Shown: one piece after another, positions 7,074-25,554 of the stretch
How the letters are laid out: each line of letters begins with the position of its first letter
Position numbering within the stretch: the first letter of the stretch is position 1
From: Flavobacteriaceae bacterium
Lineage (GTDB): Bacteria; Bacteroidota; Bacteroidia; Flavobacteriales; Flavobacteriaceae
DNA length: 64,000 bases
Assembly: GCA_018402385.1 (NCBI GenBank)
Contig: JAGYJA010000005.1
Location: forward strand, 1 to 64,000
Direction: 5' to 3'
Translations under genes and position numbers: made by a program
The notes under the pieces: model-generated
Told to the model about the DNA's origin: nothing
Database searches by the model: none
The model's input: only the letters and a program-made list of their open reading frames with translations

Positions 7074-7817
7074 AATCCTGAGTTGTAATTATCCTTTTCA
7101 AATGCAGTGCCAATAACAGCCAAAGTAGCACCTGCATTATACACCTGCTGTAATTCATTTTCTGATTGGATGCCGCCCCCCACAATAAGGGGAATCGCTA
7201 ATGCCTCACTGACTGCTTTTATAATTTCATTGGAAACACGATTTTTTGCACCGCTTCCGGCTTCTAAATAGATGAGTTTTTTCCCCATATATTGCCCTGC
7301 CAGGGCTGTGTGAACAATTTTTTGAATGTCCTCTTGAGGGAGAGGTTTAGTTTTGCTCACCCGTTCTACGGCACTTTGAATTCCACCGTCAATTAACAAG
7401 TATCCTGTGGGTATAATTTCCATTGTGCTTTCTTTTAAAACGGCAACCGACCTGTATTTGTTGGGTGATTAAATATTCAGGGTTGTTGCCTGAGAGTAAA
7501 CTTAAGAATAAAATGGCATCTGCATTATTGGATATGTGGTCTGCATCTCCCGGAAAAAGAAAAAGGGGGAGTTGGGTTACTTGATTCAAAGCGGCAACGG
7601 TAGATTCTGTTTGTTCTTTTGTAGTTGTACTTCCGCCAACAAAAAGATGGGTGGTGTTTTTTGGTATTTTAGTTAGAAAATGAGTTGCGTTTTGTGAGTC
7701 AAATTTTTCAGGATCAATGAGGATTGCCAGTAGCTTTTGCTTTTTGGAATAGGCGTTTAAAATGTAAGAGTAGTAGTGACTCATAAATTTCTTTTTTAGC
7801 AAATGGCATAAGCACAA
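7070..7817 (-). CDS. Geranylgeranylglyceryl-phosphate synthase family (PcrB/GGGPS-like) protein, interrupted by a 1-nt frameshift near 7449-7456
   Basis: N-terminal ORF 7389..7817 (LLAILIDPEKF...FVGGSTTT...SLLSGNNPEYLITQQ) and C-terminal ORF 7070..7423 (EIIPTGYLLID...IPLIVGGGIQSENELQQVYNAGATLAVIGTAFE) are colinear with B. subtilis PcrB. The alternate frame reads SVAVLKESTMEIIP across the junction. Confidence 0.7.
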
Positions 7818-8422
7818 GTGAATTCTTCAAATTCAAAAAAATGGACTTGGTAGGTGTTTATTTTTCCATTAAAAATAATATCGGCTGTGGTTTGGAGATC
7901 TTCAAATTGAAAATCTTTTACATCAATATGATGTAAAAAGCTCACGCCCGGGTTTGCATACAATTTGTAGAGGGCTTCTTTTGCACACCAAACGATAGTT
8001 AATTTTTGAATGACAGCATCGACATTGGCAAGTGTTCTGTATTCCTTTAACGGCGTAAATTTATTAGCAATTCGCAAAATTTTTTCCCGCTGTTTTTCCA
8101 CATCAATTCCCACTTCATTTTTACTGACTATAATGGCTGAAAACTCGTGTGAATGTGTGATGGAAATGCAGGTTCCGTCTTTTAAATCAGGTTTTCCGTT
8201 TTTGTTATAAACAAGGTCATGGTCAGAATAACCGGCTTCTTTTAGTAAATGGCGCACGCTTAAAAACCCTCTTTTATGAATATCTGAAAGCATTTTTGAT
8301 ATTCTTGATCTACTGTTTTCAGTGAGTTGAATACCCTGAAGCAGCTCATCAAATGATTCTTCAATCTTCCATATGAGCACTTTGGTATTTTGATTTACTG
8401 TTATTGTTTTGTAAAGAGGCAT
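7796..8422 (-). CDS. 4'-phosphopantetheinyl transferase (Sfp/AcpT type)
   Basis: VGIDVEKQ and WCAKEALYK motifs. Confidence 0.75.
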   Translation of the reverse strand: MPLYKTITVNQNTKVLIWKIEESFDELLQGIQLTENSRSRISKMLSDIHKRGFLSVRHLLKEAGYSDHDLVYNKNGKPDLKDGTCISITHSHEFSAIIVSKNEVGIDVEKQREKILRIANKFTPLKEYRTLANVDAVIQKLTIVWCAKEALYKLYANPGVSFLHHIDVKDFQFEDLQTTADIIFNGKINTYQVHFFEFEEFTCAYAIC

Positions 8423-8442
8423 GAGTTTTACTAGATAATCTG

Positions 8443-8450
8443 TATTTTTG
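8443..8450 (+). promoter_or_regulatory. Bacteroidota -7 box (TATTTTTG, TAnnTTTG consensus) upstream of ahcY
   Basis: Consensus match 37 nt before the ahcY ATG. No clear -33 TTG. Confidence 0.35.
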
Positions 8451-8486
8451 TATTCGAAAAAAATTGCTTAATACAAATATAACATT

Positions 8487-23391: not shown

Positions 23392-23943
23392 TTATTTCCA
23401 TCGAATACTTTCCATTAGATGTCTCACATCATTCCGTAAATAGAATATTGCAGGCAAAATGGAATCATAATTGGGTTTTGCATTAAAATAAAGTGAACCT
23501 GTTATAAAATGGTTAGTGGTATCGGTTACAAAAAACTGGGAAGGCGTTGCTGCATTTCCTCCTATTTCATAATACATGCCATACACTTTTTTAATGCTGT
23601 CTTCATAAGCGAGATCATCTATAACAGAAGCTTTAATGGTATGGTCATAAGTAAGCTTTTGAGCATCAAAAAGCAACGAGTCTAAATTGTTGTTTACTTC
23701 ACGATAAGTAAGGTGCAGTGTTGCTTTCATGTTAGGATAATCAAGGTTTATCCAGCAGTTTTGCTTTTTAGTCACAGTAGCCAGATAATTTATTTCGAAA
23801 GAATAAGGGCATCCTAAATCAATGAGCTTGTAAACAGGTTCAGGATATTGTAAATGAAGCATTGCCTTGGGTTTTACTGTCACATCTTGACCGCAAGAGT
23901 TGAGTAAAAGCAACATACTAAATATGACAATAAAATACTTCAT
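23392..23943 (-). CDS. gldD: GldD-like gliding-motility lipoprotein
   Basis: 183-aa lipoprotein (LLNSCGQ) matching GldD in size and layout. It lies beside ssb-mutY, as gldD does in Flavobacterium johnsoniae. Confidence 0.45.
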   Translation of the reverse strand: MKYFIVIFSMLLLLNSCGQDVTVKPKAMLHLQYPEPVYKLIDLGCPYSFEINYLATVTKKQNCWINLDYPNMKATLHLTYREVNNNLDSLLFDAQKLTYDHTIKASVIDDLAYEDSIKKVYGMYYEIGGNAATPSQFFVTDTTNHFITGSLYFNAKPNYDSILPAIFYLRNDVRHLMESIRWK

Positions 23944-24008
23944 AAATGATTTCCATTCAAGAGCAAACAGTTTGCAAATTAACGGGTATTATTTGAACAA
24001 ATTATATA

Positions 24009-24461
24009 TTAAAAAGGAAGGTCGTCTTCTTGCTGATTTACCGGTTGATTTTGAGGTGGTGCCGGTTGTTCTGTTTTTTCAGTAGATGGAGACTCCTGTT
24101 TTTGAGGCATTGCATCAGATTCAGACTTTGGAGTTAAAAATGTAAAATCTGTACATTGTATCTCGGTGCTGTATCGCTCATTTCCCTGTTCATCCTGCCA
24201 TTTTCTGGTTTTTAAACGACCCTCAATATAGACTTTATCTCCCTTTTTTAGGTAGCGTTCACAGATTTCGGCGGCTTTGTTTCTCACCACTATATTGTGC
24301 CATTCAGTATTGGATACTTTTTCACCGGTAGTGCGATTTGTATAAGTTTCATTGGTTGCAAGTGGAAATCGACCAATACAATTACCGCCTTCAAAATGAA
24401 TCATTTTTACATCATCTCCGGTATGTCCTATAAGCATAACTTTATTTACTGTACCACTCAT
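24009..24461 (-). CDS. ssb: Single-stranded DNA-binding protein
   Basis: OB-fold N-terminus, Gln/Pro-rich tail, C-terminal DDLPF. Confidence 0.9.
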   Translation of the reverse strand: MSGTVNKVMLIGHTGDDVKMIHFEGGNCIGRFPLATNETYTNRTTGEKVSNTEWHNIVVRNKAAEICERYLKKGDKVYIEGRLKTRKWQDEQGNERYSTEIQCTDFTFLTPKSESDAMPQKQESPSTEKTEQPAPPQNQPVNQQEDDLPF

Positions 24462-24508
24462 AACATGAAATTTTTGTGAACATCAAATATACCTATTTCA
24501 AACGGGTT

Positions 24509-25554
24509 TTAAAAGGAGAATCCCACAATAAAATTATGAATCACAATGGGGACAGGGTATGTATTTATTTCAGAAATCGGGATGCCTTTTGTATGTAAAG
24601 GAGAAATGTAAACCACCCAAAACTGTATATTTAAATGCTGATGCGAAAGTTTATGAACCACAGGTTTATCATTATATAAACTTAAGGACAGAATCTTAAC
24701 ATCACTTAAAGTTTCACTCACTTCCTGAATGGTGATGGCTGCATTTTGCTCTTTCTCTACTAACGGAAATTGATAGAGATTTCTCCAGATACCATTTCCG
24801 GTTCTTTTTTCAGAATTGTTTTTTCATCTTCAGAAAGGAGAACTAAATAATTGAAATAACGGTTTCTCACTTTGGTTTTTGAAGTTTTCACCGGAAGTGT
24901 ATGCACCAATCCATTGTTAAAAGCAACACAAGCTGAATTAAAAATACAATCCTCACAAAATGGGTTTTGCGGTTTGCAATGCGTAGAACCAAACTCCATC
25001 AATGCCTGATTAAATTCTCCCGGATGTTTCTCATCAATCAATTTTTGAGCAAGTTTTTTAAATTCTTTGGCTCCAGCTGATGAATTAATAGGTGTTTTTA
25101 TACCAAAAACCCGTGCCAGCACACGATACACATTTCCGTCCACCACAGCTTGGGGCTCCTCAAAACAAATGGAGGAAATGGCACTGGCCGTGTAGTCTCC
25201 AACGCCCTTTAAGTTTAATAAACCTGAGTGTGTATTTGGAAAAATTCCTTTGTGGTTATTGACAATATGTTGAGCCGTGTGGTGTAGATTTCGTGCGCGG
25301 GAGTAGTAGCCCAAACCTTGCCAAAGTTTTAAAACGTTTTCTTCTTCAGCTTTTGCCAAATCAAAAACAGTGGGATAGGTTTCTATAAAAGCCTCATAGT
25401 ATTTCAAGCCCTGTTCAATGCGGGTTTGTTGTAATATGATTTCTGAAAGCCAAATAGCATAAGGGTCTTTGCGAGCACGCCACGGCAAATCTCTTTTGTT
25501 GCTTTGGTACCAGTCAATAAGTTTTGAAGAAAAGGACATCATACAATTTAACAT
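24509..25554 (-). CDS. mutY: A/G-specific adenine glycosylase MutY, interrupted by a 1-nt frameshift in the A6/T6 run at 24805-24810
   Basis: ORF 24760..25554 is the HhH-GPD/FeS N-terminal part. The alternate frame reads KKRTGNGIWRNLYQFPLVEKE and continues into ORF 24509..24721 (Nudix-like MutY C-terminal domain). Confidence 0.85.

What the first reader, a model, noticed from the sequence alone, without database searches (positions are those of the whole stretch)
7445..24810. Four conserved genes each broken by a single-nucleotide frameshift (probable indel sequencing errors, otherwise recent pseudogenisation)
(1) The PcrB/GGGPS-like gene, near 7449-7456. (2) ahcY, at 8811-8817, with an extra A in ATGAACA. 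(3) The lipoprotein signal peptide of the metallophosphoesterase, with a C5 run at 10099-10103. (4) mutY, with an A6/T6 run at 24805-24810. In every case the downstream reading frame continues the expected protein without loss of conserved residues. This is what indel errors in short homopolymers look like (454, Ion Torrent, or unpolished long reads). Four such events in essential or conserved genes within 18 kb are unlikely to be biological. All ORF-based calls in this window should therefore be treated as possibly affected by similar errors.
Basis: seen in the sequence. Interest (0 to 1): 0.5.

Follow-up and report, generated by a model that had tools for sequence, protein, structure and literature searches.

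The report
Assembly indel errors breaking four genes
Four ordinary housekeeping genes in this metagenome-assembled flavobacterial contig are each split by a one-base length error, most likely left over from long-read assembly, so this is a data-quality artefact and not biology.

Summary
All four frameshifts are in the sequence.

Close relatives carry all four genes intact. The window matches a 73,164-bp unannotated NCBI contig. The only other source of identical proteins is the Logan assembly of run SRR14300309. That run comes from Lake Shunet, where MAGs were built with Nanopore metaFlye and Pilon polishing (PMC8382752).

A 7.9-kb Logan contig, 99.96% identical to the window, has T7 where the window has T6, so MutY is intact there. 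No independent sequence covers the other three sites.

Comparison with orthologues (0.15-38 kb) and domain-coverage checks (38-64 kb) found no further frameshifts.

Best reading: residual consensus indel errors (confidence about 0.85). Real pseudogenes or strain variants remain possible at about 0.1. Programmed frameshifting is excluded. Interest is low.

The parts
7070..7784 (-). PcrB / GGGPS-family prenyltransferase gene, split into a 131-aa N-terminal ORF (7389-7784) and a 117-aa C-terminal ORF (7070-7423)
   Evidence: Pfam PcrB hits both halves, profile positions 9-98 and 111-215 of 226. The repaired protein scores 272 bits against NF003198 (cut-off 247). It aligns without gaps to 237-aa relatives.
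7451..7452 (-). Frameshift site 1: one extra G on the coding strand (CAG G TCG; CC on the + strand)
   Evidence: tblastn frames switch between 7458 and 7453. The closest relative P0294 has QQIQSVAV. DNA alignment shows a single 1-nt gap.
8487..9804 (+). ahcY (adenosylhomocysteinase), split into a 118-aa ORF (8487-8843) and a downstream frame (8815-9804)
   Evidence: Pfam AdoHcyase and AdoHcyase_NAD hit the two parts. The repaired protein scores 647 bits against TIGR00936 over positions 1-416 of 416. Eighty orthologues read KGM[N/T]EEEF with no indel.
8814..8815 (+). Frameshift site 2: one extra A (ATG-A-ACA-GAA)
   Evidence: The only gap column in the whole-gene DNA alignment with L084. Frames switch between 8813 and 8815.
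10020..10971 (+). Lipoprotein metallophosphoesterase gene: a 34-codon signal-peptide ORF (10020-10124, lipobox FMAGC) plus the catalytic part (public gene call begins at ATG 10111, protein P0007, 286 aa)
   Evidence: Pfam Metallophos. Fourteen orthologues of 313-323 aa carry the signal peptide and domain in one frame.
10119..10122 (+). Frameshift site 3: one extra base in ATC-A-ACT-AAA. This is the true site, not the C5 run at 10099-10103.
   Evidence: The upstream frame matches orthologues through PETNEI, and the downstream frame matches from (T)KADTISK. There is a single 1-nt gap against L084.
24509..25542 (-). mutY (A/G-specific adenine glycosylase), split into an N-terminal ORF (24760-25554) and a C-terminal NUDIX-like ORF (24509-24721)
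   Evidence: Pfam HhH-GPD and NUDIX_4 hit the two parts. The repaired protein scores 318 bits against TIGR01084 (cut-off 286.5). The intact 344-aa orthologue in L086 aligns colinearly.
24805..24810 (-). Frameshift site 4: T6 run (A6 on the coding strand), one base short
   Evidence: Logan contig L081 from SRR14300309 has T7 here and reads through in frame as ...TILKKRTGNGIW....
16953..24843 (.). Stretch covered by the independent Logan contig L081 (7,892 bp, 99.96% identical: 2 substitutions and the T6/T7 indel)
   Evidence: The shorter Logan contigs L082 (6065-7102, 1 mismatch) and L083 (14518-16075, identical) do not reach sites 1-3.

Best explanation
The four frameshifts are residual consensus errors in a metagenome-assembled contig. 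They are not mutations carried by the organism.

The window belongs to a 73-kb unannotated NCBI contig from a Flavobacteriaceae population related to Planktosalinus. The only other trace of that population is run SRR14300309 from Lake Shunet, Siberia. MAGs from that project were built by assembling Nanopore reads (mean quality about Q11) with metaFlye, polishing with Illumina reads using Pilon, merging with quickmerge and reassembling with Unicycler.

Short-read support for this genome is thin and patchy. Polishing therefore fixed nearly all long-read indels but left a few: three 1-to-2 base duplications and one 7-to-6 homopolymer contraction. Each of these splits an otherwise perfectly conserved gene.

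What is shown: the indels exist, each is a single base, relatives are intact, and an independent read assembly restores mutY.

What is inferred: that the deposited contig came from the Nanopore-based pipeline, that SRR14300309 is a short-read run, and that sites 1-3 have the same cause as site 4.
For: 1. One single-nt indel per gene and no other lesion. Whole-gene DNA alignments to close relatives show a single 1-nt gap column in ahcY, the metallophosphoesterase gene and mutY. In pcrB there is one 1-nt gap plus one in-frame codon indel.
2. Repaired proteins align without gaps to orthologues. Those of pcrB, ahcY and mutY pass curated NCBIfam cut-offs; the metallophosphoesterase has no NCBIfam hit.
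3. Syntenic loci from close relatives have all four genes intact: L084 at 79.5% DNA identity and L086 at 86%.
4. Logan contig L081 is 99.96% identical over 7.9 kb and has T7 where the window has T6, giving an intact MutY reading frame. It is built only from the raw reads of SRR14300309, by a de Bruijn graph with singleton k-mers discarded.
5. SRR14300309 belongs to PRJNA721826. That paper describes Nanopore metaFlye plus Pilon MAGs and itself warns of indel errors that break ORFs.
6. The frameshifted fragments occur on one contig only, with source NCBI only. Several intact neighbouring proteins are found in both NCBI and Logan.
7. Only 1 of 283 homopolymer runs of 6 nt or more is affected. This fits a largely polished long-read consensus, not a raw one.
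8. Three sites cluster within 2.67 kb (P about 0.02), as expected for a local patch that polishing missed.
Against: - Read-level or independent-assembly evidence exists for only one of the four sites. No Logan contig covering 7.1-14.5 kb could be retrieved.
- The link between the NCBI contig and the published Nanopore pipeline is inferred from shared exact proteins with one run. I could not find the contig length in the paper's supplements.
- I could not establish whether SRR14300309 is the Illumina or the Nanopore run.
- Three of the four events are insertions outside true homopolymers. That is less typical of Nanopore errors than homopolymer deletions.
- Stretches without exact Logan support also occur where no frameshift is seen, for example 27-37 kb. 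The coverage argument for the cluster is therefore weak.
- L081 also differs by two substitutions, so some real strain variation between the two consensuses is possible.
Confidence: 0.85

Rival explanations
1. The frameshifts are real mutations: recent pseudogenes, or alleles of one strain in a mixed population that the consensus happened to pick up.
For: The deposited sequence does carry them. The Logan contig differs from the window by two substitutions as well as the indel, so the two consensuses may come from slightly different strain mixtures. Loss of mutY or of a secreted phosphoesterase is tolerable for a bacterium.
Against: ahcY is the core enzyme of the methyl cycle and is 95-98% identical to the orthologue on both sides of the break, with no second lesion. 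Four independent fresh frameshifts without any other decay would be an unusual coincidence, given that about 36 other genes compared with orthologues are intact. The mutY allele is not the one seen in the read-based assembly. Project provenance gives a simpler cause.
Confidence: 0.1
2. These are programmed recoding events, either ribosomal +1/-1 frameshifting or transcriptional slippage, that still yield full-length proteins.
For: Each downstream frame continues the protein exactly. Site 4 lies in an A-run on the coding strand.
Against: No relative shares any of the shifts. L084, L086 and more than 80 orthologues are in frame at each position. The same population has the in-frame A7 allele of mutY. 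A6 is too short for efficient transcriptional slippage (established knowledge from endosymbiont poly-A tracts). Sites 1-3 have no slippery motif.
Confidence: 0.01
3. The genes are naturally split into two separately translated polypeptides.
For: Natural splits exist elsewhere in this window: the HipA-like kinase is encoded as separate HipS-like and HipT-like genes, the second with its own RBS and ATG.
Against: At the four sites the downstream parts lack a start codon and RBS at the junction, and the frames overlap. All close relatives encode single polypeptides of exactly the repaired length, for example 237 aa for PcrB, 438 aa for AhcY and 316 aa for the phosphoesterase.
Confidence: 0.01

Closest known systems
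Residual indel errors in long-read (Nanopore) or hybrid metagenome-assembled genomes after short-read polishing
   Same: Single-base length changes split otherwise intact conserved genes into adjacent ORFs. They are absent from an independent read-based assembly, which was shown for mutY. The data set is one whose authors describe exactly this problem and used Pilon to reduce it.
   Different: Three of the four events are 1-to-2 base duplications rather than the classic deletions in long homopolymers. Only 1 of 283 runs of 6 nt or more is affected. These are therefore leftovers of a mostly successful polish, not raw long-read error.
Genuine frameshift pseudogenes in genomes undergoing reduction (for example host-restricted bacteria)
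   Same: Conserved genes are interrupted by single-base indels, often in A/T runs.
   Different: Here there are no accompanying lesions, IS expansion or wider gene decay. Neighbouring genes are intact and gene density is normal. One allele is contradicted by reads from the same population.
Phase-variable homopolymer tracts (contingency loci), including mutator switches in DNA-repair genes
   Same: mutY carries an A7/A6 length difference between two assemblies of one population.
   Different: There is no evidence that both alleles coexist in reads. The tract is short and made of A:T. The relative L086 has GA6 in frame. The simplest reading is a one-base consensus error.
Programmed +1 frameshift of prfB (RF2) and similar recoding sites
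   Same: A single-base frame change is needed to read the full protein.
   Different: Recoding sites are conserved across species and have defined slippery or stimulatory motifs. None of the four sites is conserved in any relative examined.

Membership tests
Sequence/assembly indel artefact | The lesion is a single-base length change, and removing it restores a full-length, colinear orthologue | tested here: met
   for all four genes.
Sequence/assembly indel artefact | The lesion is absent from an independent assembly or reads of the same population | tested here: inconclusive
   Met for mutY: Logan L081 has T7 against T6 in the window. Sites 1-3 are not covered by any retrievable Logan contig.
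Sequence/assembly indel artefact | The data come from an indel-prone platform or pipeline | tested here: inconclusive
   The only run sharing exact proteins is SRR14300309 of PRJNA721826, where MAGs were built with Nanopore metaFlye, Pilon, quickmerge and Unicycler. The contig's own assembly record could not be read, and its length was not found in the supplements.
Sequence/assembly indel artefact | No other signs of gene decay in the broken genes or their neighbours | tested here: met
   There is one gap column per gene. About 36 other genes compared with orthologues are in a single frame. Where a Pfam family is hit at 38-64 kb, domain coverage is full except for one truncated integrase.
Programmed ribosomal frameshift / recoding | The frameshift is conserved in orthologues of related species | tested here: not met
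   All relatives are in frame at all four positions.
Genuine frameshift pseudogene | The same disrupted allele is seen in independent sequence from the population | tested here: not met
   For mutY the independent contig has the intact allele. The fragments of PcrB, AhcY and the phosphoesterase occur on the one NCBI contig only. This could not be tested at read level for sites 1-3.
Adenosylhomocysteinase (TIGR00936 ahcY) | Full-length match above the curated cut-off | tested here: met
   The repaired protein scores 647.3 bits (cut-off 497.6) over model positions 1-416 of 416.
A/G-specific adenine glycosylase MutY (TIGR01084) | Match above the curated cut-off, with an HhH-GPD domain and a C-terminal NUDIX-like domain | tested here: met
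   318.5 bits (cut-off 286.5). HhH-GPD and NUDIX_4 hit the two fragments.
GGGPS/HepGPS (PcrB) family, NF003198 / TIGR01769 | Match above the curated cut-off across the TIM-barrel | tested here: met
   272.3 bits (cut-off 247) and 170.3 bits (cut-off 161.55) for the repaired protein.
Lipoprotein metallophosphoesterase (Pfam PF00149 Metallophos) | Calcineurin-like phosphoesterase domain preceded, in one frame, by a lipoprotein signal peptide with a lipobox cysteine | tested here: met
   Metallophos hit of 29.7 bits (cut-off 21.5). Orthologues carry ...LAGCQGNSNKE... contiguous with the domain, and the cysteine is nearly invariant. Signal-peptide cleavage itself was not tested.

The most novel reading that the evidence does not exclude
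The mutY A6/A7 difference is a real, reversible length polymorphism in the lake population. Under this reading it acts as a phase-variable mutator switch in an environmental Flavobacteriaceae lineage, and the other three frameshifts are genuine lesions carried by the mutY-off strain.
Probability: 0.03. Interest if true: 0.45.

Novelty: not a real feature. Interest (0 to 1): 0.05.

Why it matters
The value is practical rather than biological. The window comes from a MAG whose consensus still carries about one frame-breaking indel per 16 kb. Gene calls, completeness estimates and any pseudogene or split-gene inference from this genome need orthologue-aware correction.

The public gene call for the phosphoesterase (P0007, 286 aa) has lost its lipoprotein signal peptide because of the error. 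The public protein collection also holds fragments of AhcY and PcrB as if they were proteins.

The analysis bounds the problem as well: apart from these four sites, the genes that could be checked read cleanly.

Tried and rejected
- Exact look-ups of the window's AhcY fragment, TonB receptor, PPTase and P0007 in the gene-position index found nothing.
- Exact look-ups of six candidate repaired proteins found none in the collection, so no same-species intact copy could be retrieved. The candidates were AhcY with N or T, PcrB with IQS or IRS, and the phosphoesterase with T or N.
- Searches with the repaired phosphoesterase and PcrB found nearest relatives at only 92% and 87% identity.
- The AhcY cluster members were all from other organisms.
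- The genome-contig scan with AhcY did not return the source genome. The best hits were 89-91% identical Flavobacteriaceae.
- The metagenome scan with the 661-aa protein gave synteny only for 51.1-55.0 kb, so 38-64 kb had to be judged by Pfam domain coverage.
- Searching the paper's supplements for the contig length or for Planktosalinus found nothing.
- Two candidate extra frameshifts were rejected. The ORF pair 57265-57600 / 57590-58531 is a natural HipS/HipT-type split with its own RBS and ATG. The DnaE ORF at 61900-63933 simply runs off the window end, with its frame open to position 64000. The overlapping pair 4626-5315 / 5156-5797 is two separate genes in the relative as well.
- A shared error motif was considered. 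Sites 2 and 3 look alike (GGAATGAACAGAAG and GAAATCAACTAAAG), but two cases are too few to support a motif.
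Full report
**What is in the sequence.** The window is 36.6% G+C and contains no N. The ORF list and three-frame translations show four places where a conserved protein continues in another frame.
- A PcrB-family gene on the minus strand: ORFs 7389-7817 and 7070-7423.
- ahcY: 8487-8843, then 8851-9804.
- A metallophosphoesterase: a 34-codon ORF from ATG 10020, then the 10054-10971 frame.
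- mutY on the minus strand: 24760-25554 and 24509-24721.

Pfam assigns complementary parts of the same families to each pair:
- PcrB profile positions 9-98 and 111-215.
- AdoHcyase positions 2-102, then 172-299 together with the NAD domain.
- HhH-GPD, then NUDIX_4.

**Exact anatomy of each break.** A genome-contig scan with a repaired AhcY returned 80 Bacteroidota loci, several with conserved synteny.

A much closer relative was reached through the phosphoesterase search. P0002 lies on a 567-kb contig. Its locus L084 is colinear with window 148-21516 at 79.5% DNA identity.

tblastn of the 18 L084 proteins against the window shows 15 in one frame and exactly three split:
- PcrB: residues 5-108 in frame -3 down to position 7458, and residues 110-236 in frame -1 from position 7453.
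- AhcY: residues 1-109 to position 8813, and residues 110-438 from position 8815.
- The phosphoesterase: residues 1-34 to position 10121, and residues 25-316 from position 10093.

Whole-gene DNA alignments show a single 1-nt gap column in ahcY, the phosphoesterase gene and mutY. In pcrB there is one 1-nt gap plus an in-frame codon indel.

For PcrB, the nearest relative P0294 (87% identical, 237 aa) reads QQIQSVAV. The window therefore has an extra G in CAG-G-TCG, which is CC at 7451-7452 on the + strand.

For AhcY, orthologues read KGM[N/T]EEEF and the window has ATG-A-ACA-GAA, so the extra base is an A at 8814-8815.

This is wrong. The signal-peptide frame continues to match orthologues (CQGNSNKE.PETNEI) well past that run. 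The switch is at ATC-A-ACT-AAA, positions 10119-10122.

For MutY, a second close relative was used: L086, at 86% DNA identity, reached through the MrpA search. It carries an intact 344-aa gene. The window's two frames join at the T6 run 24805-24810, which is one base short.

The repaired PcrB, AhcY and MutY pass NCBIfam curated cut-offs: NF003198 at 272 bits against 247, TIGR00936 at 647 against 498 over the full model, and TIGR01084 at 318 against 286.5.

**Is the rest of the window affected?**
- In 22-38 kb, 19 further L086 proteins map in single frames.
- In 38-64 kb, synteny with available relatives was poor, so I used Pfam domain coverage instead. Genes with a family hit show essentially complete domains.
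- Two suspicious cases were cleared. The HipA-like pair 57265-57600 / 57590-58531 is a natural HipS/HipT-type split preceded by a HipB-like HTH gene, and the second gene has AAGGAG plus ATG. DnaE runs off the window end.

The four sites therefore appear to be the full set of frame-breaking errors, about one per 16 kb. Three of them lie within 2.67 kb, which has a simulated P of 0.019 for uniform placement.

**Where the sequence comes from.**
- Exact-sequence look-ups show that the window's proteins, including the broken fragments, sit on one NCBI contig of 73,164 bp. The proteins carry no accessions, which suggests an unannotated MAG.
- Related named proteins point to Flavobacteriaceae near Planktosalinus.
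- About half of the intact proteins tested are also present in Logan. None of the fragments is.
- Every Logan contig retrieved comes from run SRR14300309: L081 (7,892 bp, window 16953-24843), L082 (6065-7102) and L083 (14518-16075).
- That run is listed in the data-availability statement of PMC8382752 on Lake Shunet, a Siberian meromictic lake. There, MAGs were made by metaFlye assembly of Nanopore reads with mean quality about 10.6-11.6. The assemblies were polished with Pilon using 45-100 bp Illumina reads, merged with quickmerge, polished five more times and reassembled with Unicycler. The authors state that long-read assemblies carry many indels that corrupt ORF prediction.
- Logan contigs are built per run from k-mers seen at least twice, with Cuttlefish2 and then Minia3. 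They are therefore independent of the deposited assembly.

**The one direct test.** L081 is 99.96% identical to the window. It differs by two substitutions and one indel. The indel is T7 in L081 against T6 in the window at 24805-24810. With T7, the partial MutY product of L081 reads ...DEKTILKKRTGNGIWRNLYQFPL... in one frame through to the stop. One of the substitutions, at 24591, changes Thr to Lys, and the Logan allele (Lys) is the one shared with the relative L086. The read-derived sequence of the same population thus has an intact mutY.

**Inference for the other three sites.** No independent sequence covering 7.1-14.5 kb could be recovered. For sites 1-3 the error explanation rests on five points:
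- the shared provenance;
- the fact that each lesion is a lone single-base change in an otherwise strongly conserved gene (AhcY is 95-98% identical to the L084 orthologue on both sides of the break);
- intact orthologues in every relative;
- the implausibility of a fixed ahcY knockout;
- the precedent of site 4.

Only 1 of 283 homopolymer runs of 6 nt or more is affected. This argues that the contig was largely corrected by accurate reads and that these four sites escaped.

There are weaknesses. Three events are small duplications (G to GG, A to AA, A to AA) rather than classic homopolymer deletions. Logan support is patchy across the whole window, not only near the cluster. I could not verify the contig's assembly record or the platform of SRR14300309.

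**Alternatives.**
- Real pseudogenes or strain alleles cannot be excluded for sites 1-3 without pile-ups (about 0.1).
- Programmed frameshifting and natural gene splitting are contradicted by the in-frame state of all relatives and of the same population at mutY.
- The most novel reading that remains is a phase-variable A-tract in mutY. I rate it at about 3%.

**Verdict.** The finding is an assembly artefact of low biological interest, and it is useful only as a caution about this MAG.

Noticed in passing
window 50417-50441 and 59640-59664; tRNA-Asp at 59655-59729 (-): An exact 25-bp direct repeat (GCGTAGTCGAAGTATGCGGTCTGGA) occurs twice. One copy overlaps the 3' end of tRNA-Asp. The repeats bracket about 9.2 kb that carries an integrase, a hipBST-like module, a DUF285 protein, an NT5C nucleotidase and a NUMOD1 protein. 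This looks like an integrative island inserted at tRNA-Asp.
   Followed up: partly
window 58559-59485 (-): A tyrosine-integrase ORF has Arm-DNA-bind_5 and SAM-like domains but no catalytic domain. Its last 60 or so residues look like out-of-frame, G+C-rich junk, and no catalytic domain is found in the other frames downstream. It is either truncated or marks an assembly junction.
   Followed up: partly
window 57060-58531 (+): A three-gene HipBST-type toxin-antitoxin arrangement: an HTH gene (57060-57268), a HipS-like HipA N-terminal domain protein (57265-57600) and a HipT-like kinase (57590-58531). The genes overlap by 4 and 11 nt. This is a natural split, not a frameshift.
   Followed up: partly
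window 24591: A substitution between the window (G on the + strand, MutY Thr) and Logan contig L081 (T, Lys). The Logan allele matches the relative L086 and creates a T6 run. It is either a strain SNP or a substitution error in the contig. Two other substitutions lie at 17206 (silent) and 6440.
   Followed up: partly
window 9805-15800: The block holding the phosphoesterase, a phytase-like protein (11099-12109), a 938-aa TonB-dependent receptor and DUF3332 is present in the closest relatives (L084, L085). It is absent between ahcY and rpmA/rplU in more distant Flavobacteriaceae loci, so it is a lineage-specific insertion.
   Followed up: no
L046 10001-11313 (MAG MFD01721.bin.4.8): The AhcY match in this other MAG spans 1,313 nt, which is not a multiple of three. 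All other loci span 1,314 nt. This suggests the same kind of single-base error in another public MAG.
   Followed up: no
proteins P0122, P0127, P0130, P0131, P0135 (AhcY cluster): Several public AhcY 'proteins' from other metagenome assemblies end in short out-of-frame tails (for example ...FQRCRFYCYRY and ...KKLNYGYCNC). Frameshifted fragments of this gene are therefore common in the protein collection.
   Followed up: no
window 16169-16849 (-): Ribosomal protein L21 is 226 aa here and 250 aa in L084. Only the first 124 residues align, so the C-terminal extension is long and variable.
   Followed up: no
window 51676-52440 (-): A 254-aa ORF with no Pfam hit is inserted between two genes that are adjacent in the metagenome relatives L087 and L088.
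   Followed up: no
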